Assembly: GCA_027031765.1 (NCBI GenBank)
Contig: JALVPN010000207.1
Coordinates: forward strand, 1-8,820
Length of the DNA stretch: 8,820 nucleotides
Direction of reading: 5' to 3'
DNA from: Promethearchaeota archaeon
GTDB taxonomy: Archaea; Asgardarchaeota; Thorarchaeia; Thorarchaeales; Thorarchaeaceae
Shown here: piece after piece, positions 2 to 7,733 of the stretch
Position numbering within the stretch: the stretch's first letter is position 1
Layout: the number at the start of each line of letters is the position of its first letter
Translations under genes and position numbers: made by a program
The notes under the pieces: generated by a model
Database searches by the model: none
Seen by the model: only the letters and a program-made list of their open reading frames with translations
Told to the model about the DNA's origin: nothing

Positions 2-1570
2 GGGAAGAGCACGCTCCTCCGCCTCCTGTTCGGCAAGGAGCCTGCACCTGGTGGATACGTGCCCACGATCAACGTTGCCGTCGACTCGTCCGAGACCATC
101 CAGTTCGGCACTTTCCTTGTTACCATCTGGGACTTTGCAGGACAGGCCGTCTTCCAGGACCTCTGGGGCTTCTACTTCCAAGGTACCGACGTCATATTCC
201 TAATCACGGACTCGAGTTTCAGGAACGTCATGCAGACAAAGACGCTGCTCAGGAGCATCAAGAAAGAGGCGCCCGCAGTCCCCCTGTTCATCATTGCCAA
301 CAAGCAGGACCTACAAGAGTCCATGCGGGCCGACAAGATACAGCGCCTGCTGGGTGCACCGACATTCCCTATGGTTGCAACTGACAAGAGCCGTCGTGAC
401 GAGTTCATCCGCCTGATGCTCGAAGTGACAGCCAAGACCGTCGGTGTGGAGCTCCCCGACCTGCCGATCAGCGAGATGATTGTGGTACGCCGACGGACGG
501 AGGAGATTGACCGCATCGGCACGTCGACGGCGCGGGTCTCGGCCCAGTCTGGCTACGAGGACGTCCCATATACAGAGGGGGTGACTGAGACAACACACGC
601 AGGTCTTGCTGCTGTCACAACGACCGGGACGGACCCAGCAGTGACAGGCGACACGGCCGGGACCGACGGCACTGCAGACACGGCTGTACCGGCCACGGAT
701 GCGTCCGACGCTGTGGTCCGTGTGGAACCCACTAAGATCCACCACCTGCTGCTCCTTGTCCTCAAGCCAGGACTGTTTGACATCGCACTGCACATACCAT
801 ACTCTGAGGAACCAGTAGAAATCAACTCGGTGACATCCCTCATCTCGGCCCTGGACTCGTTCGCAGGCATCAGTGCCCCTCCGGACGGAGAGGCCACGCA
901 GACAGACGCCCTAGAGACAATCGAGCACGAGGGCAACCTGGTAATGATAGAGAAGTCAAGGCACTTTGCCCTAGCCCTGATTGTCTCCAACAGGAACCGC
1001 GAAGAAGAGCTCCGCAAGAAGATGGCCTCGGTACTGACAGAGGTCGAGCAGATGTTCCTCGCGTTGTGGAACCGCTGGGACGGCAGTACTGAGCCCTTTG
1101 AGATGGCCGTGTTCGACATCCTCAACGCACTACCAGTCCGCCCCCTCAGCCTCGACTACGTCATACGTTCGCGCGAGGCAGGGAAAGCCCTACCATTCAG
1201 GAACCGTGATGTCGGGCGCGCCATCGTTGAGGTGAAGATGGCCATTGAGCCAGGGATAACAGTGGGCGGCCTCATACGGAGCCTCGACATGCCTCGGGAG
1301 ACCATTCTCGGCTGTCTGCAGATACTGAGTCAGTTCGACTGGATTGACTTCAAAGTGGACATAACGGAGGAGAGCCACCTGAAGAAGAGCGGCGAGGTGG
1401 ACGAGGACACCCGGAAGGCGTACGGGGACGTGGTCGTCAAGTTCGTCGACCTGTGTGATGGCACCCGCTCCCTGCAAGAGGTCGTCCGACAGGTGAATGT
1501 GAGCCTCCAGGCCATGAAGTTCGTCGTACAGAAGCTCGTCCTCGATGGCATCCTCGAAGTCGTCGCATGA
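2..1570 (+). CDS. Arf-like small GTPase fused to a T/A/D-rich linker, a longin-like domain and two winged-helix-like modules (5'-partial; frame is open from the window edge)
   Basis: The frame upstream of the track's start at 59 reads GKSTLLRLLFGKEPAPGGYVPTI (P-loop GKST at 2-13, switch I PT). G3 WDFAGQ is at 128-145, G4 NKQD at 299-310, and LWGFYFQGTDVIFLITDSS is Arf-like. Segment ~734-1135 has a longin-like beta-beta-alpha-beta-beta-beta-alpha pattern ending WDGSTEPF. The C-terminus has IEPGITVGGLIRSL...LQILSQFDWIDF and CDGTRSLQEVVRQVNVS...VQKLVLDGILEVV. The GTPase call is strong; the C-terminal domain calls are inference. Confidence 0.9.
   Translation, partial: GKSTLLRLLFGKEPAPGGYVPTINVAVDSSETIQFGTFLVTIWDFAGQAVFQDLWGFYFQGTDVIFLITDSSFRNVMQTKTLLRSIKKEAPAVPLFIIANKQDLQESMRADKIQRLLGAPTFPMVATDKSRRDEFIRLMLEVTAKTVGVELPDLPISEMIVVRRRTEEIDRIGTSTARVSAQSGYEDVPYTEGVTETTHAGLAAVTTTGTDPAVTGDTAGTDGTADTAVPATDASDAVVRVEPTKIHHLLLLVLKPGLFDIALHIPYSEEPVEINSVTSLISALDSFAGISAPPDGEATQTDALETIEHEGNLVMIEKSRHFALALIVSNRNREEELRKKMASVLTEVEQMFLALWNRWDGSTEPFEMAVFDILNALPVRPLSLDYVIRSREAGKALPFRNRDVGRAIVEVKMAIEPGITVGGLIRSLDMPRETILGCLQILSQFDWIDFKVDITEESHLKKSGEVDEDTRKAYGDVVVKFVDLCDGTRSLQEVVRQVNVSLQAMKFVVQKLVLDGILEVVA
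593..722 (+). repeat. Low-complexity Thr/Ala/Asp/Gly-rich linker with degenerate 27-nt periodicity
   Basis: Encodes THAGLAAVTTTGTDPAVTGDTAGTDGTADTAVPATDASDAVVR. GACACGGC occurs at 650-657 and 677-684, 27 nt apart. Confidence 0.6.
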
Positions 1571-1671
1571 GCAGTACCTGCTGCACCACGCCGTCCCGGC
1601 GGCCTGTGGGGCCCCCTCGCAGTACGTGCTGGCTGAAGGGCCCTCCACGGTGGAGCACAGTGGGACGGCGC

Positions 1672-3813
1672 CTACACCTCAACCACGAACCGCTGGCCCA
1701 TCTGGGGGACCTTGAAGCCCTCAGGTGCCATCCGCAGCGGCGTGTGGACAATGAACCTCTTGCCCGTACACTGGTGTGCGAATGCCTGGAGGTTCGACGA
1801 CGAGGAGTGGGCACTGAGCCGTGCATAGTGTACAGTGCACTCGTGTGGCTCGTAGCCACGGAGAAGGTTCCAACCGGGAGTGCGGGGTGCAAGGTACCCA
1901 CACAGGACCACTGCGGCCTCCGGGTTGCGGCTGTGCTGTCGGAAGTGTTCGCGTGCGAGGCCACCACCAAGCATGCCGCCACCCGCCACGAGTATGTCAT
2001 CTGGGTCAAGCACCACTTTGTTCTTCTTCATCCCCTTCCAGTGGCCCTTTATTCCGACCAGTCGCGTGACCCGTTCTGCAAGGCCCCCGGTGATCACGTT
2101 TCGGGAGGCTGTGATACCGAGTTCTTCGAGTATCATGAGGATTTCCTGGCAACGGCCGACTGCGAATGTCGGGACTATTACTGGGCCGTGCTCCCGGACG
2201 ATGGAGGCGATGTCCTCGCGCACGCGCGTCCTGTCAAAGTCCTGTCGTCCCCAGTAGGTGCCGTCCACTATCACGACGTCGGGGTCTGTGGGCATCACAG
2301 CGCCGGGAAACAGCACCGACCGGTCCAGGTTGAAGTCGCCGGTGTAGAGTATCATGAGGCCCTCGATATCGATGAGAAAGGCCGCGCTACCTGGGACGTG
2401 GCACGCATCGAGAGGCGTGACGACAATCCCCGGCCCCACCTCGCTGCTCTTGCCGACCTCGATGGGCACGTGCTGTTTCGCCACCCTGTCGATGTTGCGC
2501 TGTCTGAACCACGAGACCGGGTCCGTAGAGTCCCGCTTCCGTGGTGGGAGCGGGGTGCCCACTGTGAGGGCATCGTCGAGGAGCGCCTTTGTTATTGCCC
2601 CCGTCAGCGGGGTGGAACACCACTTGCCGGTGAACCGCTCGAACAGTATTGGGAGGCCTCCCGTATGGTCGAGGTGGGCGTGAGTGACAAGCACGCTGTC
2701 AATCACCTCCAGTTCGGGCACCCACTGGGGAGTTGTCTGGTTGGCAACGGACAGGCCATAGTCCAGGAGGACACCCCCCGTGGCGGTCTTGATGATGATG
2801 CCACTGTGGCCGATACCGGGCCCTCCAATGAAGATGAGCTCGACCTTGCGTGTTGGGACTGAGTAGGCCACAGACGGCAGGAGTTCACGCCGCATCCTCT
2901 CAGGGATCATCTCAAAGACAACAGAGTCGAGCGGCTCTGGCGTGGGTGGCGCCGGCAGCTCATGCAGTCGTACGGGGAGCACATCGTCGCTCCCCACCCG
3001 GAACCCTAGCGACCTGAACACGTCCTGCACCGCGCTCACGGCCTCGGGCACCGACATCGATGGGGAGAGGGCCAGCTGTGCCTGTTCGTAGGCCTGGGCC
3101 CTGAAGATGTCGAAGAGGCGCATCTGGAGGCCTTCTGGTAGCCACGTCTTTGTGGCATCATAGACGTCGCTGTACCAGCGTCCCTCGACAGCCTCGGCCA
3201 TGTATTCGGGGTGCCTCACCAGAGTGTCCACGAGGCGGAGGTCGCCCTCACGGACGAGCCCCGACAGGTCGACACCCACGGTGCTGGCCGCCTCAGCAAG
3301 TCTGGAGGGGGTGACAAGCGGGGCGCCCAGGAACCGGATGTGCTCGCGGACCCGGGCGAGTACGTACTCCGGCTCATCGTCTGGGACTGCGGAGAGGAAC
3401 ACCAGGGCCTTGTAGAGCCACCTGTGGAGCTCACCGAGGCCCCTGCCATTTGACAGGGAGAACCGGTACACGTACCTGAAGTCGTCCTCGGTGTAGTTAC
3501 CGAGCAGCATCCCATACATGCAAAGTCCGAGGCAGTGTATCATCTCAGTACCCGGCAGGCCGCGCACAGCATCACGCAGTACGAGGCCGAGCTGTGCGTG
3601 CACAGCCCTTGCCGACCCGAGCCCCACGGGTTCAACGTCATGGGCCCGCAACAGCTCGAACGGGAGGAGGTCCCGCGGCAGGCCGAGGATGTCCTCACCT
3701 TCCGGGATGGCATGTCCTTCACCCGCAAGGGCAGCGTCACTGGCAGCCTGGTCGAAGAAGTCAGAGATCACCTCGTTGTCTGTGTGTGGGAGTCGTTCAC
3801 GGAGTATGGTCAT
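1672..3813 (-). CDS. Beta-CASP metallo-beta-lactamase ribonuclease (aCPSF-like) with a long N-terminal domain of unknown family
   Basis: Motifs in order: LLDYG, THAHLDH (HxHxDH at 2665-2682), ACHVPGS, YTGDF, VDGTYW, PTFAVGRCQE, GGMLGGG, CGYLAPRTPG, LSAH, FIVH. The nuclease part starts near 2844 (VELIFIGG). The start is either ATG at 3813 or GTG at 3822. Confidence 0.92.
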   Translation of the reverse strand: MTILRERLPHTDNEVISDFFDQAASDAALAGEGHAIPEGEDILGLPRDLLPFELLRAHDVEPVGLGSARAVHAQLGLVLRDAVRGLPGTEMIHCLGLCMYGMLLGNYTEDDFRYVYRFSLSNGRGLGELHRWLYKALVFLSAVPDDEPEYVLARVREHIRFLGAPLVTPSRLAEAASTVGVDLSGLVREGDLRLVDTLVRHPEYMAEAVEGRWYSDVYDATKTWLPEGLQMRLFDIFRAQAYEQAQLALSPSMSVPEAVSAVQDVFRSLGFRVGSDDVLPVRLHELPAPPTPEPLDSVVFEMIPERMRRELLPSVAYSVPTRKVELIFIGGPGIGHSGIIIKTATGGVLLDYGLSVANQTTPQWVPELEVIDSVLVTHAHLDHTGGLPILFERFTGKWCSTPLTGAITKALLDDALTVGTPLPPRKRDSTDPVSWFRQRNIDRVAKQHVPIEVGKSSEVGPGIVVTPLDACHVPGSAAFLIDIEGLMILYTGDFNLDRSVLFPGAVMPTDPDVVIVDGTYWGRQDFDRTRVREDIASIVREHGPVIVPTFAVGRCQEILMILEELGITASRNVITGGLAERVTRLVGIKGHWKGMKKNKVVLDPDDILVAGGGMLGGGLAREHFRQHSRNPEAAVVLCGYLAPRTPGWNLLRGYEPHECTVHYARLSAHSSSSNLQAFAHQCTGKRFIVHTPLRMAPEGFKVPQMGQRFVVEV

Positions 3814-3814
3814 G

Positions 3815-4897
3815 TCAATCACGTCGTCCGAGCCCTGGTGGACTACGTTGGCCTGGGGGGCCAGGGGTCACCCTATACAGGCCCTGTCTGCTGTCACGGA
3901 GGGACACTCTCTTCTGCACGAGCCCCTCTGAGATCAGTAACGAGAGTGCATGCCGGACAGTCCGGGCTGGTAGCATGGTCTCCTCAATAATCTGTCGCTG
4001 GGTCAGCTGGCCCTTGTACTCAAGGACCTTGAGCACCAGCTTTGCACTGGGTGGGAGGTCGTGGGCCGCATTGTCGAAGACCTCGGCCTTCTTCAGTAGC
4101 TTGCCCCGGAGCACTGCAATCCGTTCCTCAGAGAACTTGACGAACACGGCGTCAGAGTCGGAACGCCTTATTGTGACCGGCCCGTCGCCGACCTCCTTCC
4201 GGAGCTGTCCGTCCAGGACCGCCTCTATCTTGACCGAGCTGATGAGGTCACGGATCTCGACCTCCATCCTGTCCGATACGATGAGTGGGCGTCGTGCCGG
4301 GTTCACACTATTGACGGTGACTATCGAGAAGACCGGGGCCGAGTTGAGGACGACGGGCCCGCCCACGCTCATCGAGTAGGCCGTGCTCCCGGTGGGCGTG
4401 GACACGATGAGGCCGTCACTACCGTCCTTCCAGAAGGGCTCACCGTCGAGGACGAGGGTGTACCGCATCAGGGTCGCGCTCCGACGTGCAAAGACTGCCA
4501 CATCATTGAGGAGTGGTGGTGACTCCGAGCCCCCTATCGTTGCCACGAGCCGCATCCGTCTGTCCTCGGTCCACCTGCCATCCATGAGGTCTCCAACGAC
4601 CGTGTCGAGCGCCGTCACTGTGACGTCAAAGAGGAAGTCGGGCTGTCCTTTCGACGACACCGGTAGCACTGGGGTCTCCCGGTCACCGAGACGGATGAGG
4701 GTGTCCAGCAGACACCGGTCTGAGCCCACTACTGCAATGATGTCAGCATCAAGGTCTTCCAGTTGGGCGCCCTCCCTGCCCAGTGTCGCGGCCAGTCTCT
4801 GCTCAAGCGCGACCTCGACACCTGCCGCCTCGAACGTCGCAATTGCCGTCCGTGCGTCCTCTACGACTGTGGCCTCGGGACCCGAGACAATGCCCAC
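3815..4897 (-). CDS. NAD-kinase-like protein with degenerate GGDG motif, fused to a C-terminal MarR-type winged helix-turn-helix
   Basis: NAD kinase signatures LLNDVAV, SDGLIVSTPTGSTAYSMSVGGP and LDGQ are present. GGDGT is replaced by GSDRC (4712-4726). The C-terminal LPPSAKLVLKVLEYKGQLTQRQIIEETMLPARTVRHALSLLISEGLV...RDSRQGLY (~3869-4057) matches archaeal MarR-like wHTH proteins. GTG start with AAGGAGGT at 4918-4911. Confidence 0.9.
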   Translation of the reverse strand: MGIVSGPEATVVEDARTAIATFEAAGVEVALEQRLAATLGREGAQLEDLDADIIAVVGSDRCLLDTLIRLGDRETPVLPVSSKGQPDFLFDVTVTALDTVVGDLMDGRWTEDRRMRLVATIGGSESPPLLNDVAVFARRSATLMRYTLVLDGEPFWKDGSDGLIVSTPTGSTAYSMSVGGPVVLNSAPVFSIVTVNSVNPARRPLIVSDRMEVEIRDLISSVKIEAVLDGQLRKEVGDGPVTIRRSDSDAVFVKFSEERIAVLRGKLLKKAEVFDNAAHDLPPSAKLVLKVLEYKGQLTQRQIIEETMLPARTVRHALSLLISEGLVQKRVSLRDSRQGLYRVTPGPPGQRSPPGLGRRD

Positions 4898-4921
4898 GCG
4901 CGTCCTGCAGACCTCCTTGGA

Positions 4922-4950
4922 GTACCATATGGTACGGGCAAGTCACTTGC
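4922..4950. promoter_or_regulatory. Two adjacent palindromes, candidate operator over the inferred start site of the kinase-HTH gene
   Basis: Perfect 14-bp GTACCATATGGTAC (4922-4935) and 6-1-6 GCAAGT-C-ACTTGC (4938-4950), 2 bp apart. The sequences are seen directly; the function is inferred. Confidence 0.55.
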
Positions 4951-4957
4951 ACCCGCC

Positions 4958-4966
4958 CTCTTAAGT
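4958..4966 (-). promoter_or_regulatory. Putative TATA box of the kinase-HTH/RNase unit
   Basis: The minus strand reads ACTTAAGAG. The identical 9-mer occurs at 8399-8407 upstream of the last ORF. Confidence 0.5.
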
Positions 4967-5005: not shown

Positions 5006-5018
5006 GGCAAGAATTGCC
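5006..5018. promoter_or_regulatory. 5-3-5 inverted repeat midway between the divergent TATA-like boxes
   Basis: GGCAA-GAA-TTGCC is centred at 5012; the midpoint between the two TATA-like boxes is ~5013. Confidence 0.4.
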
Positions 5019-5060
5019 TGTGCCTGCCCGTCCCTGTCCGGTTTGCCGATTGAGATTTGC

Positions 5061-5068
5061 CTTTAAGG
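5061..5068 (+). promoter_or_regulatory. Putative TATA box of nadA
   Basis: CTTTAAGG lies 33-40 nt upstream of the ATG at 5101 in an otherwise GC-rich spacer. Confidence 0.55.
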
Positions 5069-5100: not shown

Positions 5101-6066
5101 ATGACCTCAGACCTGAATGACATCCAGCGAGAAGTCCTCGCACTCAAGCGCGAGCGCGGGGCCCTCGTCCTTGCACACAACTACCAGCTGCTAGGAGTAC
5201 AGAGGGTCGCAGATTTTGTCGGCGACTCGCTCCAGCTGGCCCGCAAATCGGCCCAGGTCTCAGGGTACAACATGATTGTGTTCGCAGGTGTCCGGTTCAT
5301 GGCAGAGATGGCTGCAGTCCTTGCACCAGAGGTACCAGTCTACATACCGGCACCAGACGCACTGTGCCCGCTGGCCGCCTTTGTCGATGGCGAGAAGGCC
5401 CGCAAGTGCAGGGCACAGCACCCTGGCGCCCCGGTTGTGCTGTACGTGAACACGACAGCGGAGGCCAAGACCGAAGCCGATGTGATATGTACGTCCAGCA
5501 ACGCGGTCGAGGTCGTCGAGTCGCTCGGTACTGATACTGTGATATTTGGGCCCGATGCGAACCTAGCAGAGTATGTCCGCAGGCAGACAGGCGTGGAAGT
5601 CGTGGACGTCGAGCCCCGGGGCCACTGTTACGTCCACAGACAGTTTGATGTCGCACAGGTCGAGCTCCTGAGAGAGGAGCACCCCGGTGCACTGGTGCTC
5701 GTCCACCCGGAGTGCTCGCCGGAGGTACAGGACGTGGCTGACATTGTCTGCTCAACTGGCAAGATGGTGAAGGTCGTTGCAGAGAGCAGGGCAAGGGAGT
5801 TCATAGTGGCCACGGAGGTCGGGCTTGTGGAACGGCTCCAGGCAGCACACCCTGACAAGACCATCATCCCAGCCCATCCCGGGGCAGTCTGTCGCCAGAT
5901 GAAGAAGACGACCCTGGAGAAGGTAGTGCATGTCCTCCGGGAGCTGCCAGAAGAGAACCTCGTCACAGTGCCCCCTGAGAGGGCAGAGCGGATACGGCGT
6001 GCGCTCGAGCGCATGGAACTGACCGTGCACAGGCCCCCGGTCGCCAGCGTGGTGGCCCATCACTAG
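5101..6066 (+). CDS. nadA: Quinolinate synthase A ([4Fe-4S] enzyme)
   Basis: LAHNYQ, DFVGDSLQLA, FAGVRFMAE, LYVNT, CTSSNA, FGPDANL, HPEC and TEVGLVERL are present, with three cluster-ligand Cys in LCPLA, HCYVH and VCRQMKK. The ATG at 5101 (MTSDLNDIQ, 321 aa) is preferred over the track's start at 5014, which runs through the promoter. Confidence 0.97.
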   Translation: MTSDLNDIQREVLALKRERGALVLAHNYQLLGVQRVADFVGDSLQLARKSAQVSGYNMIVFAGVRFMAEMAAVLAPEVPVYIPAPDALCPLAAFVDGEKARKCRAQHPGAPVVLYVNTTAEAKTEADVICTSSNAVEVVESLGTDTVIFGPDANLAEYVRRQTGVEVVDVEPRGHCYVHRQFDVAQVELLREEHPGALVLVHPECSPEVQDVADIVCSTGKMVKVVAESRAREFIVATEVGLVERLQAAHPDKTIIPAHPGAVCRQMKKTTLEKVVHVLRELPEENLVTVPPERAERIRRALERMELTVHRPPVASVVAHH

Positions 6067-6145: not shown

Positions 6146-6802
6146 CTAGTGGCTGGGTATCACCACCGTCAGGACTTCAGAGAGCGAGTGCACCACTGGG
6201 CCAGTATGACCGACACGTCTGAAGTCGTCCTCACCGAACATGCGGGCCACCGCAATGAACCTGCAGAACCCGACTGACCGCTCGTAGTCCTTGAGGGAGT
6301 CACCGACAAAGACCGCATCGCTGAGGTCGACCCCGTGCACACGCTGGATGTGCATGAAGTGGTGGGCGCCCTTCTCAAAACCGGGCCTGTAGCCGACCAC
6401 CTCGTCAAAGCAGTCCAGCAGTCCGCGCCGCCTGAAGTACTCCTCGATTGTGGGCTGGAATGTGGACGATGACACGAACAGTTGCATACCCATCCTGCGG
6501 AGCGCCCTGACCGTGGCCTCGGCATCGGGGAACAGCTCCTGTTCGTATATGCACTGGAGCTTGAGGGCCTCGAACTCCTCGACGGCACGCCTGTTTGCAG
6601 GGTGTCCGGGGAAATTGAGCTCGACCTGGTGCTCGTAGGGCAGGCCCGTGGTCATCCTGTAGCGGCGGGTGGCCTCCTCCTTGGAAACACCATAGTAGTC
6701 CATCATCACGCGCACGCCAATCCTCTCAAGGAATGGCATGCTGTCGGCCAGTGTCCCATCGAAGTCGAATACAATGGCACTACACCTGACGGTCGCTAAC
6801 AT
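6146..6802 (-). CDS. HAD-superfamily hydrolase (phosphoglycolate-phosphatase-like, subfamily IA)
   Basis: Motif I FDFDGTLADS, motif II VSSS, motif III Lys (FEKG), motif IV FVGDSLKD, with a helical cap after motif I. Substrate unknown. Confidence 0.92.
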   Translation of the reverse strand: MLATVRCSAIVFDFDGTLADSMPFLERIGVRVMMDYYGVSKEEATRRYRMTTGLPYEHQVELNFPGHPANRRAVEEFEALKLQCIYEQELFPDAEATVRALRRMGMQLFVSSSTFQPTIEEYFRRRGLLDCFDEVVGYRPGFEKGAHHFMHIQRVHGVDLSDAVFVGDSLKDYERSVGFCRFIAVARMFGEDDFRRVGHTGPVVHSLSEVLTVVIPSH

Positions 6803-6873: not shown

Positions 6874-7416
6874 CTAGTCGTCACCGCCGCTGCCAGAGTG
6901 CGCCCTCTTGTACTCTTCTATACAGCGGTTGATGGTCTGGTAGGCCTCCCCAATATCACCGAACCGCTTGATCTCTGTGTGGACGCCCTCCTGTATCTTG
7001 TATGTGGCATAGAAGTGCTTCAGTTCCTCCACCTGACTCCTTGGCACGTCCACCAGGCCAGACACATCCCTGTAGTACGGGTCTCGTATCGGGACTGCAA
7101 TCACCTTGTCGTCAACCTTGCCGGCATCGTCCATCTCCATGAGGCCGATGGGCCTCGCCCGGACAACGCAGGCGGTGAAGGTCGGCTCACTGATGAGCAG
7201 GACGACATCTAGGGGGTCGCCGTCGTAGTCAAGGGTGCGGGGGATGAAGCCGTAGTCGAACGGTGCAAACGTATAGAGCACCCTGTCGAGTCTGAACACG
7301 TTGTACTCCGGGTCGTACTCGTACTTGTTCTTGCTCGCCCTGGTCAGCTCGATGACCACGAACACCTCACTCGGTGGGTCAGGACCAGGCGGCAACTCAT
7401 GGAGGTAGTTCGTCAT
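6874..7416 (-). CDS. ppa: Family I soluble inorganic pyrophosphatase
   Basis: VIE...KNKYEYD, LDRVLY, DYGFIP, DYDGDPLDV, DDKVIAV and TYK are present. ATG at 7416 (MTNYLHELPPGPDPP, 180 aa; GTG at 7419 is an alternative). The track's extension to 7611 is not PPase-like. Confidence 0.97.
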   Translation of the reverse strand: MTNYLHELPPGPDPPSEVFVVIELTRASKNKYEYDPEYNVFRLDRVLYTFAPFDYGFIPRTLDYDGDPLDVVLLISEPTFTACVVRARPIGLMEMDDAGKVDDKVIAVPIRDPYYRDVSGLVDVPRSQVEELKHFYATYKIQEGVHTEIKRFGDIGEAYQTINRCIEEYKRAHSGSGGDD

Positions 7417-7505
7417 CACATCCGAAAACTGCGGCTCTGCTAAAGAGTGTTGCCAGTCCCGTGCGCAGCTGACCGCCCTTGATAGACAGGGCAACGTGCC
7501 ATGTA

Positions 7506-7733
7506 ATGGTTGCTGAGAGAAGGCAAGGATAGGTGGGACGGTGGGACGTATCGAAAGGGTACTGCAACCTGCCGATGAAAGTTGTCGACTCCTTCTACGT
7601 CGACGGGTCAAGACTGGTCATCCACGACAACGGGTACGTGCGCGTCTGGGCCCTCCAGTCCATGATGCCTGTGTTCCCAGTGCCTGCGGTCAGGGAACAC
7701 CTCCAAGAGGAACATTGGGTGTGCACGTCCTGA
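7506..7733 (+). pseudogene. WD40-like beta-propeller fragment (~1.5 repeats), interrupted, or a small ORF at 7533/7575-7733
   Basis: Reads MVAERRQG*VGRWDVSKGYCNLPMKVVDSFYVDGSRLVIHDNGYVRVWALQS. WDVSKGYC and DGSRLV...NGYVRVW resemble the WD40 consensus. There is a TAG at 7530-7532. 41 of 52 codons from ATG 7575 end in G/C. Confidence 0.4.

What the first reader, a model, noticed from the sequence alone, without database searches (positions are those of the whole stretch)
3815..4897. Probable pseudo-kinase: NAD-kinase fold repurposed as the sensor of a winged-helix transcription factor
Seen: the catalytic GGDGT is changed to GSDRC and the GIN.G.LGFL segment to PVSSKGQPDFL, while the NAD-binding ND and TPTGSTAYSMSVGGP motifs are kept, a DNA-binding wHTH is fused, and the gene is head-to-head with nadA. 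Established: the GGDG motif is needed for NAD kinase catalysis, and known NAD regulators (NadR, NrtR, NiaR, NadQ, Rex) use other folds. I recall a similar kinase-wHTH fusion in Nitrososphaerota (unverified), so the architecture may not be new, but I know of no characterised function. Inference: an NAD/NADP-responsive regulator of de novo NAD synthesis.
Basis: partly seen in the sequence, partly recalled or inferred. Interest (0 to 1): 0.8.

Follow-up and report, generated by a model that had tools for sequence, protein, structure and literature searches.

The report
NAD-kinase-derived regulator of archaeal nadA
A Thorarchaeota (Asgard) gene joins a remodelled copy of NAD kinase to a DNA-binding winged helix and sits head-to-head with the NAD-synthesis gene nadA across a conserved palindrome, so it is very probably an undescribed transcription factor that matches NAD synthesis to the cell's pyridine-nucleotide level.

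Summary
Gene 3815-4897 (-) encodes a 360-aa protein with a full NAD-kinase fold and a C-terminal wHTH. GGDGT reads GSDRC and the GxNxGxxGFL loop reads SSKGQPDFL. The NE/D motif and conserved region II are intact. nadA starts 203 bp away on the other strand.

- **Spare kinase:** the genome has a separate canonical NAD kinase, so this copy need not be an enzyme.
- **Gene neighbourhood:** in all 26 genomes of the family that carry the fusion, nadA is its divergent neighbour. The link to NAD genes recurs in other Asgard families, next to nadA or pncB. In a Bathyarchaeota contig the neighbour is nadX-nadA.
- **Operator:** a palindrome, GGCAA-N3-TTGCC, lies about 95 bp before the nadA ATG (window 5006-5018), with a second site 29 bp on. 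It also precedes unlinked second nadA copies. It is missing before nadA in most relatives that lack the fusion.
- **Motif decay:** 51 of 56 unfused NAD kinases keep GGDG, against 18 of 76 fused ones.

Loss of kinase activity is likely but unproven. The catalytic Asp is kept, and the altered loops are themselves invariant within the family. The ligand and the sign of regulation are inferred.

I found no paper on this family. The scan has met it before on other DNA. The closest analogue is RbkR.

The parts
3815..4897 (-). Regulator gene: NAD-kinase-fold sensor plus C-terminal wHTH (360 aa from GTG 4897; the orthologues' start codon aligns with ACG at 4901-4903)
4538..4897 (-). N-terminal (Rossmann-like) domain, aa 1-120. 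Fastest-evolving part (44% mean identity in the family). Pfam PF01513 no longer matches.
4715..4726 (-). GSDR (aa 58-61) in place of GGDG. Asp kept; R or K at the 4th position in 113 of 118 orthologues.
4631..4657 (-). SSKGQPDFL (aa 81-89) in place of the NxGxxGFL loop; nearly invariant within the family
4133..4537 (-). C-terminal NAD-binding domain, aa 121-255. N131-D132 (4502-4507) and conserved region II (aa 160-181, 4355-4420) are intact.
3869..4051 (-). MarR-like winged helix-turn-helix, aa 283-343. Most conserved part (81% in the family). The RTVR-x-AL helix is kept across all fused lineages.
4912..4916 (-). Shine-Dalgarno-like GGAGG of the regulator gene, 8 nt before ACG 4903 and 14 nt before GTG 4897
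4960..4965 (-). TATA-like box of the regulator promoter (family consensus CTTAAAT on the + strand)
5006..5018 (.). Operator site 1, perfect GGCAA-N3-TTGCC, 95 bp before the nadA ATG and midway between the two TATA-like boxes
5035..5047 (.). Operator site 2, 29 bp from site 1. Only the right half-site TTGCC is kept in this window (6 of 10); 8-9 of 10 in most relatives.
5062..5067 (+). TATA-like box of nadA (family consensus TTAAAA), 15 nt after site 2
5101..6066 (+). nadA, quinolinate synthase: the target gene (the ORF listed from TTG 5014 is an over-extension)
1672..3822 (-). Beta-CASP/MBL nuclease paralogue whose start overlaps the regulator's stop by 8 nt. Probably co-transcribed from the regulator's promoter.

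Best explanation
The gene encodes a transcription factor whose sensor is a duplicated, remodelled NAD kinase.

**DNA binding (inferred).** The C-terminal wHTH, acting in a dimer or tetramer as NAD kinases form, binds the palindrome GGCAA-N3-TTGCC at 5006-5018 and a weaker site 29 bp downstream. Both sites lie between the divergent promoters, upstream of both TATA-like boxes.

**Ligand sensing (inferred).** The NAD-binding C-terminal domain still binds a pyridine dinucleotide, NAD(H) or more likely the former product NADP(H). Occupancy changes DNA affinity, so transcription of nadA, and of the regulator/beta-CASP operon, follows the NAD(P) pool.

**Sign of regulation (inferred).** Because the sites lie upstream of the promoter elements, I favour activation that is relieved by the ligand, as proposed for RbkR. 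Repression is not excluded.

**Kinase activity (inferred).** It is probably lost or vestigial, because a canonical NAD kinase elsewhere in the genome supplies NADP.

**What is shown and what is not.** Shown: the architecture, the fold, the paralogue, the gene linkage, and operator conservation with co-variation. Inferred: DNA binding itself, the ligand, the sign of regulation and the loss of catalysis.
For: 1. **Fold and domains.** NAD_kinase_C plus wHTH by Pfam. The AF2 model has pLDDT 90.9, and Foldseek top hits are all NAD kinases with TM 0.81-0.85.

2. **Redundancy.** The genome (95% complete) has a canonical 289-aa NAD kinase with GGDGT on contig C41, and a COG3199-like kinase on C128. 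Canonical paralogues also exist in four other genomes (G029, G041, G074, G108) whose fusion is degenerate.

3. **Linkage.**
   - In 26 of 26 same-family genomes with the fusion, nadA is on the same contig within about 250 bp. It is head-to-head in every locus examined.
   - The same pairing occurs in families f2, f15 and f5, down to 33-38% identity.
   - In f20 and f16 the neighbour is a nicotinate-phosphoribosyltransferase-like gene.
   - In a Bathyarchaeota contig it is nadX-nadA.

4. **Operator.**
   - GGCAA-N3-TTGCC scores 10 of 10 in 21 and 9 of 10 in 4 of 25 family loci. It lies 89 to 102 bp before the nadA ATG (93-96 bp in 21 of the 25). A second site lies exactly 29 bp on in most loci.
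   - In an alignment of the spacers, only these sites, the two TATA-like boxes and a GGTG before the ATG are conserved.
   - The same palindrome is in the Bathyarchaeota spacer. GGCAA-N3-TTGCT is found in f5.

5. **Co-variation.**
   - Second, unlinked nadA copies in two regulator-bearing genomes carry a perfect site 95 bp before the ATG.
   - 9 of 11 relatives with nadA but no regulator lack site 1 (no match above 7 of 10 at that position).
   - The two exceptions have a 9-of-10 site beside a wHTH remnant (G152) or an 8-of-10 site (G087).

6. **Active site.**
   - GGDG is intact in 18 of 76 fused against 51 of 56 unfused 50%-identity cluster representatives.
   - Sister lineages have lost even the Asp (GGAA, GDTG).
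   - The fusion with intact GGDGT in G007 has no separate canonical kinase.

7. **Conservation pattern.** Mean identity is 81% in the wHTH, 71% in the NAD-binding domain and 44% in the N-terminal domain.
Against: - No experiment exists, and no RNA data were found.
- The catalytic Asp and all residues reported as vital for Ppnk activity (PMC8553519) are kept.
- GSD[R/K] and SxGQPDFLF are nearly invariant in the family. That fits a working, altered site as well as it fits a pure sensor.
- In family f20, three of five genomes (87-91% complete) showed no NAD-kinase homologue other than the fusion (GRDG/GRDR). A degenerate GGDG may therefore not always mean a dead kinase.
- In this window site 2 keeps only one half-site.
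- The exact palindrome also occurs at 10 other places in the genome, 7 to 8 of them inside long ORFs.
- Most of the linkage evidence comes from related genomes that share ancestry.
Confidence: 0.65

Rival explanations
1. Bifunctional 'trigger enzyme', like RbkR. The protein is still an NAD (or NADH) kinase with an unusual GSD[R/K] phosphate loop. It also regulates nadA, using its own substrate and product as effectors.
For: - Asp60, N131, D132, T172 and Y174 are kept (PMC8553519).
- The altered loops are invariant in 118-119 orthologues.
- Basal fused forms keep GGDGT, and in G007 the fusion seems to be the only NAD kinase.
- Some f20 genomes show only the fusion.
- RbkR shows that the enzyme-plus-regulator combination works (PMC5397151).
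Against: - Two of the four GGDG residues, the following Thr and the whole NxGxxGFL loop are changed. GGDGT is found in 124 of 127 archaeal NAD kinases, and even T87N cripples Ppnk (PMC3769651).
- A canonical paralogue is present in this genome.
- The N-terminal domain evolves fastest and is no longer seen by PF01513.
- NCBIfam scores are far below the equivalog cut-offs (130.8 against 326).
Confidence: 0.2
2. A regulator of nadA whose effector is not NAD(P). It could be another pathway metabolite held in the remodelled pocket, such as quinolinate (the NadA product), NaMN/NaAD, or a phosphoryl donor.
For: - The remodelled, conserved GSD[R/K] and QPDFLF loops suggest a changed specificity.
- A paper title listed in PMC4518329 and PMC5890153 (Garavaglia et al. 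[quoted passage not shown] I could not open the paper itself.
Against: The motifs that contact NAD in solved NAD kinases (NE/D and region II) are the best-kept part of the sensor across all fused lineages.
Confidence: 0.12
3. No regulatory link. The adjacency to nadA is inherited synteny, and the wHTH serves another purpose, such as control of the downstream beta-CASP gene only, or no DNA binding at all.
For: - The block beta-CASP / fusion / nadA / HAD is syntenic as a whole in the family.
- Distant fused forms (DPANN, one Thermoproteota contig, f14/f22) have no NAD gene nearby.
Against: - Linkage to NAD genes recurs with different partners and orientations in different phyla.
- The operator precedes unlinked nadA copies and disappears where the regulator is missing.
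Confidence: 0.03

Closest known systems
RbkR, the archaeal riboflavin kinase / MarR-type wHTH regulator (Rodionova et al. 2017, PMC5397151)
   Same: - A cofactor-pathway kinase domain is fused to a MarR-like wHTH.
- Palindromic operators lie upstream of the promoter elements of the pathway's biosynthetic genes.
- The regulator is found by the same comparative-genomics logic.
- It is a likely activator whose DNA binding responds to substrate and product.
   Different: - The enzyme fold is unrelated (CTP-dependent RibK against the NAD-kinase fold).
- The wHTH is N-terminal in RbkR and C-terminal here.
- RbkR is usually the only RibK of its genome and keeps activity. Here a canonical paralogue exists and the catalytic loops are remodelled.
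- RbkR is biochemically and structurally validated; this protein is not.
Canonical NAD kinase (NadK/Ppnk; solved examples 7qvs, 1u0r, 1suw)
   Same: - Same two-domain fold (TM 0.81-0.85).
- NE/D motif, conserved region II and the catalytic Asp are kept.
   Different: - GGDGT reads GSDRC and the NxGxxGFL loop is replaced.
- An extra linker helix and a wHTH are added.
- It scores far below all NCBIfam equivalog cut-offs.
- It is not the genome's housekeeping copy.
Bacterial NAD regulators NrtR, NadR, NiaR and NadQ (NrtR: PMC2330246, PMC6800001)
   Same: - Each has an enzyme-derived or nucleotide-binding sensor domain fused to an HTH.
- Each controls nadA/nadB/nadC or salvage genes through palindromic operators, often from a divergent position.
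- NrtR is likewise a catalytically degenerate enzyme homologue (Nudix).
   Different: - The sensor folds differ (Nudix, NMNAT/RNK, 3H domain).
- They are bacterial repressors.
- No sequence or fold relation to this protein; Pfam finds none of their domains.

Membership tests
NAD kinase (EC 2.7.1.23; Pfam PF01513 + PF20143) | Two-domain NAD-kinase fold | tested here: met
   AF2 model pLDDT 90.9. Foldseek top 50 are all NAD kinases, TM by target 0.81-0.85.
NAD kinase (EC 2.7.1.23; Pfam PF01513 + PF20143) | C-terminal domain profile above the gathering score, with NE/D motif and conserved region II | tested here: met
   PF20143 scores 77.6 bits against 23.7. N131-D132 and DGLIVSTPTGSTAY are kept.
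NAD kinase (EC 2.7.1.23; Pfam PF01513 + PF20143) | GGDG(T) motif and N-terminal domain profile | tested here: not met
   The motif reads GSDRC. PF01513 gives no match to this gene, although it finds the two other paralogues of the genome.
NAD kinase (EC 2.7.1.23; Pfam PF01513 + PF20143) | Score above a curated NCBIfam equivalog cut-off | tested here: not met
   The best hit is NF002984, 130.8 bits against a cut-off of 326. All 18 models fall below their cut-offs.
NAD kinase (EC 2.7.1.23; Pfam PF01513 + PF20143) | Phosphorylates NAD(H) | not testable with these tools
   Needs an enzyme assay.
MarR-like winged-helix transcription factors | wHTH domain by profile and by predicted topology | tested here: met
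   MarR_2 E = 5e-6 (26.9 bits, 0.1 bit under the cut-off), plus HTH_24, HTH_9 and TFIIE_alpha hits. The model has three helices and a two-strand wing at 283-343. Weak PDB sequence matches to MarR and TFE wHTHs.
MarR-like winged-helix transcription factors | Conserved palindromic operator in its own or its target's promoter | tested here: met
   GGCAA-N3-TTGCC lies at a near-fixed distance in 25 of 25 family loci and in a Bathyarchaeota locus. It co-varies with the regulator.
MarR-like winged-helix transcription factors | Sequence-specific DNA binding | not testable with these tools
   Needs EMSA or fluorescence polarisation.
RbkR family (riboflavin kinase/regulator) | Homologous RibK kinase domain with an N-terminal wHTH | tested here: not met
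   The sensor has the NAD-kinase fold and the wHTH is C-terminal. This is an analogue, not a member.
RbkR family (riboflavin kinase/regulator) | The enzyme domain is the genome's only orthologue, with catalytic residues conserved | tested here: not met
   A canonical NAD kinase is present on C41 and GGDG is altered.
NrtR / NadR / NiaR / NadQ (bacterial NAD regulators) | Nudix, NMNAT/RNK, 3H or NadQ-type sensor domain | tested here: not met
   Pfam and NCBIfam scans show only NAD-kinase and wHTH models.

The most novel reading that the evidence does not exclude
This would be the first NAD-homeostasis transcription-factor family of Archaea. It would have begun as a bifunctional NAD kinase-wHTH, still seen with GGDGT in DPANN and in one Asgard family. 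In lineages that kept a second kinase it would have turned into a pseudoenzyme sensor. The basic residue that replaces the fourth Gly (GSD[R/K]) would make the pocket read NADP(H), the former product, so that de novo NAD synthesis answers to the NADP pool. The co-transcribed beta-CASP nuclease would tie pyridine-nucleotide status to RNA processing.
Probability: 0.15. Interest if true: 0.8.

Novelty: new variant of a known kind. Interest (0 to 1): 0.62.

Why it matters
I found no description of transcriptional control of NAD synthesis in Archaea in the searchable literature. The known NAD regulators (NadR, NrtR, NiaR, NadQ) are bacterial.

This family offers a concrete candidate that is easy to test:
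- a soluble 40-kDa protein;
- a defined 13-bp operator;
- a short list of ligands.

It is also a clean natural series for watching an essential enzyme become a sensor. Fused forms with an intact site, forms with a remodelled site, and forms that have lost the catalytic Asp all occur in related archaea.

The operator motif lets NAD regulons be predicted in uncultured Asgard and Bathyarchaeia genomes. It also corrects a common annotation: these proteins are filed as 'NAD(+)/NADH kinase' or 'sugar kinase'.

Tried and rejected
- **Homodimer prediction with NADP:** no verdict (score 0.12 against a mark of 0.42). Not used either way.
- **Sequencing runs:** no RNA holder listed. The one DNA holder is a hydrothermal-vent metagenome.
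- **Sigma-70 promoter and terminator scan:** nothing found, and not relevant to an archaeon.
- **Conserved RNA structure in the regulator's 5' leader:** mean z = 0.08 over 27 loci, so none. The 14-bp palindrome at 4922-4935 is private to this genome.
- **Operator before other NAD-related genes of this genome:**
  - No site scoring 9 of 10 or better before nadC on C144 or the COG3199-like kinase.
  - The one 9-of-10 match in the canonical NAD kinase locus lies inside a neighbouring ORF, so it was taken as chance.
  - Nothing above 8 of 10 before the nadB-like genes.
- **pncB-pncA operon on C92:** a 9-of-10 site lies 94 bp before it in this genome. It is not conserved before the orthologues of 19 relatives, so it stays a weak lead.
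- **Other exact genomic copies of the palindrome:** most lie inside ORFs, and none is next to a recognisable NAD gene.
- **Same consensus in the spacers of f20, f16, G007, DPANN and Thermoproteota fusions:** not found. Their operators, if any, differ.
- **Family tree of the kinase domain:** FastTree only, with weak deep branches. Used only as a rough picture.
- **Literature searches:** no paper on an NAD kinase-wHTH regulator. Many subscription papers are not in the library.

Full report
**What is there.** The window is contig C207 of a 2.95-Mb Thorarchaeota (Asgard) genome bin, 95% complete. The taxon comes from the source names of its closest homologues. The only sequencing run that holds the stretch is a hydrothermal-vent metagenome.

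ORF 3815-4897 (-) gives a 360-aa protein.
- Pfam finds NAD_kinase_C (9e-22) and a MarR_2/HTH_24-type winged helix at 279-338. It does not find the N-terminal NAD_kinase domain.
- NCBIfam NAD-kinase models match residues 14-269, but all fall far below their cut-offs (best 130.8 bits against 326).
- Against solved NAD kinases, GGDG aligns with G58-S-D-R, the following Thr with Cys, and 'IN-RGSLGFL' with 'VSSKGQPDFL'. N131-D132 and 'DGLIVSTPTGSTAY' are kept.
- An AlphaFold2 model built on 110 relatives has pLDDT 90.9. It shows the two-domain kinase fold (1-255), a long linker helix and a three-helix, two-strand wHTH (283-343).
- Its best 50 Foldseek matches are all NAD kinases, with TM 0.81-0.85 by target.

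nadA is full length. Its orthologue-supported ATG is at 5101, so the divergent spacer is 203 bp.

**Is it the cell's NAD kinase?** No. The same genome has two other homologues:
- a canonical 289-aa NAD kinase with GGDGT, NKGTVGF, NE and TPTGSTAY on contig C41;
- a COG3199-type 376-aa kinase on C128.

Both are recognised by PF01513, which no longer sees the window's gene.

**Family and neighbourhood.**
- More than a hundred close homologues (58-73% identity; 67% the highest full-length match) come from Thorarchaeota. They are named NAD kinase, sugar kinase, MarR regulator or hypothetical protein.
- In 201 Asgard genomes, full-length matches that include the wHTH occur in eight families or more.
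- Within the window's own family, 26 of 44 sampled genomes have the fusion. In all 26, nadA lies on the same contig within about 250 bp. In every locus I fetched it is head-to-head.
- The same pairing holds in families f2, f15 and f5, down to 33-38% identity.
- In families f20 and f16 the neighbour is a nicotinate-phosphoribosyltransferase-like gene.
- In a Bathyarchaeota contig the fusion (GGDS) is divergent from nadX-nadA.
- Fusions that keep GGDGT behave differently. In Asgard genome G007 the fusion faces an NfnAB-like pair, and no separate canonical kinase was found. In Micrarchaeota and Diapherotrites there are no NAD genes nearby.

**Operator.**
- The spacers of 25 family loci do not align except at four blocks:
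  - the regulator's TATA-like box;
  - a palindrome GGCAA-N3-TTGCC;
  - a second, weaker copy followed by the nadA TATA-like box;
  - a GGTG before the ATG.
- The palindrome scores 10 of 10 in 21 loci and 9 of 10 in 4. It lies 89 to 102 bp before the nadA ATG, and 93-96 bp in 21 of the 25. The second site lies exactly 29 bp on in most loci.
- In the window, site 1 is 5006-5018, midway between the two TATA-like boxes. Site 2 (5035-5047) keeps only its right half.
- Related sites occur in f2, f15 and f5. The identical consensus occurs in the Bathyarchaeota spacer. This fits the near-invariant recognition helix RTVR-x-AL across the whole fused family.

**Co-variation test.**
- Two regulator-bearing genomes have a second nadA elsewhere. 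Both copies carry a perfect site 95 bp before the ATG.
- Of 11 relatives with nadA but no regulator, 9 have no match above 7 of 10 at the site 1 position. One of the nine (G204) keeps an 8-of-10 match at the site 2 position.
- One relative has an 8-of-10 site at the site 1 position.
- One has a 9-of-10 site next to a decayed wHTH fragment.

This is the strongest single argument that the wHTH binds this site and that nadA is its target.

In this genome the exact palindrome occurs 11 times, against about 3.4 expected. Most copies lie inside ORFs.

**Pseudo-kinase or not.**

For loss of activity:
- Among 50%-identity cluster representatives, GGDG is intact in 51 of 56 unfused proteins but in only 18 of 76 fused ones. 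The five unfused exceptions look like truncated fusions. Clusters are not independent, so I give no weight to the p value.
- Sister Asgard lineages have lost even the Asp (GGAA, GDTG), and they possess canonical paralogues.
- GGDGT is found in 124 of 127 archaeal NAD kinases, and T87N already cripples Ppnk (PMC3769651).
- The N-terminal domain is the least conserved part: 44% identity, against 71% for the NAD-binding domain and 81% for the wHTH.

Against:
- The Asp that abstracts the proton is kept, and so are the Asn, Asp/Glu, Thr and Tyr that the review lists as vital for Ppnk (PMC8553519).
- GSD[R/K] and S-x-G-Q-P-D-F-L-F are almost invariant in 118-119 orthologues. The site has been rebuilt, not abandoned.
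- Three of five f20 genomes showed no NAD-kinase homologue other than their GRDG/GRDR fusion, though those bins are only 87-91% complete.

I therefore rate 'little or no kinase activity' at about 0.6. I keep a bifunctional, RbkR-like protein as the main rival.

A basic residue at the fourth motif position recurs in many fused lineages. It could contact the 2'-phosphate of NADP. This is a guess that a structure would settle.

**Mechanism proposed.**
- A dimer or tetramer binds the two sites between the divergent promoters. NAD kinases form their NAD site at a dimer interface (PMC8553519).
- Ligand occupancy of the kinase-derived domain changes DNA affinity.
- Both sites lie upstream of the promoter elements, as do the RbkR sites for which activation was proposed (PMC5397151). 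So I favour activation of nadA when the nucleotide is scarce. The sign is open.
- The regulator's own promoter also drives a beta-CASP nuclease paralogue whose start overlaps the regulator's stop by 8 nt. That gene order is conserved in the family.

**Novelty.**
- Four full-text searches found no paper on an NAD kinase fused to a DNA-binding domain, nor on an archaeal NAD regulator of this kind.
- The principle, an enzyme-derived sensor fused to an HTH that controls the enzyme's own pathway, is well known (RbkR, NadR, NrtR, BirA; PMC5397151, PMC2330246).
- I therefore class this as a new variant of a known kind.
- This scan has already met the same family on other genomes and reached the same reading. 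My tests were run independently on this genome and its relatives.

Noticed in passing
window 1672-3822 (-): 716-aa beta-CASP/metallo-beta-lactamase nuclease. It is distantly like aCPSF1/FttA and Cas14 (148.7 bits against an aCPSF1 cut-off of 580.2). Its 330-aa N-terminal region has no family match. Its GTG start overlaps the regulator's stop by 8 nt, and the gene order is kept in the family and in f2. It is probably co-transcribed with the regulator.
   Followed up: partly
window 4901-4903 (-) and loci L008-L032: The ATG start of 8 orthologues aligns with ACG in 14 of 27 loci, including this window, two codons before GTG 4897. In two of those loci a stop codon lies directly before the ACG or one codon further up. 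A GGAGG lies 6-9 nt ahead. The family seems often to use a non-canonical (ACG or AUU/AUC) start, perhaps to keep the regulator scarce.
   Followed up: partly
window 4922-4935: Perfect 14-bp palindrome GTACCATATGGTAC in the regulator's 5' leader. It is not conserved in relatives, and no conserved RNA fold was found there.
   Followed up: yes
window 6146-6802 (-): HAD-family phosphatase convergent with nadA. It is syntenic in 18 family loci. In Asgard genome G007 a HAD gene overlaps the 3' end of the GGDGT fusion. It could be a pyridine-nucleotide or NADP phosphatase.
   Followed up: partly
G000 contig C92 (L056:1039-1080, genes 1132-2304 and 2301-2873): A pncB-like phosphoribosyltransferase and a pncA-like isochorismatase form an operon. 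A 9-of-10 operator match with the same GAA spacer as the nadA site lies 94 bp before it, and a GGCAA-N2-TTGCG lies 30 bp further on. The site is not conserved before the orthologues in 19 relatives.
   Followed up: yes
G000 contig C157 (L052:4217-4229; tRNA-Cys 4102-4176, -): An exact GGCAATTGTTGCC lies directly upstream of the TATA-like box of a tRNA-Cys gene. Coincidence or a real second target is undecided.
   Followed up: partly
L089 (G152:C17:55645-56545), about 313-465: Beside nadA, a relative that lacks the regulator keeps a frame with 63% identity to the wHTH alone (residues 293-343) and no kinase domain or clear start. It still has a 9-of-10 operator. This looks like a recently decayed regulator.
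   Followed up: partly
window 2-1570 (+) and 1567-2862 (+): The first ORF is an Arf/Ras-like small GTPase (first ~120-140 aa) with a ~380-aa extension of no known family, typical of Asgard genomes. The 431-aa ORF that follows has no family match. It lies antisense to the beta-CASP domain, so it is probably a shadow ORF of this GC-rich DNA.
   Followed up: partly
window 6874-7611 (-): Inorganic pyrophosphatase whose Pfam domain starts only at residue 85 of the 245-aa ORF. Either it has an N-terminal extension or the start is called too far upstream.
   Followed up: no
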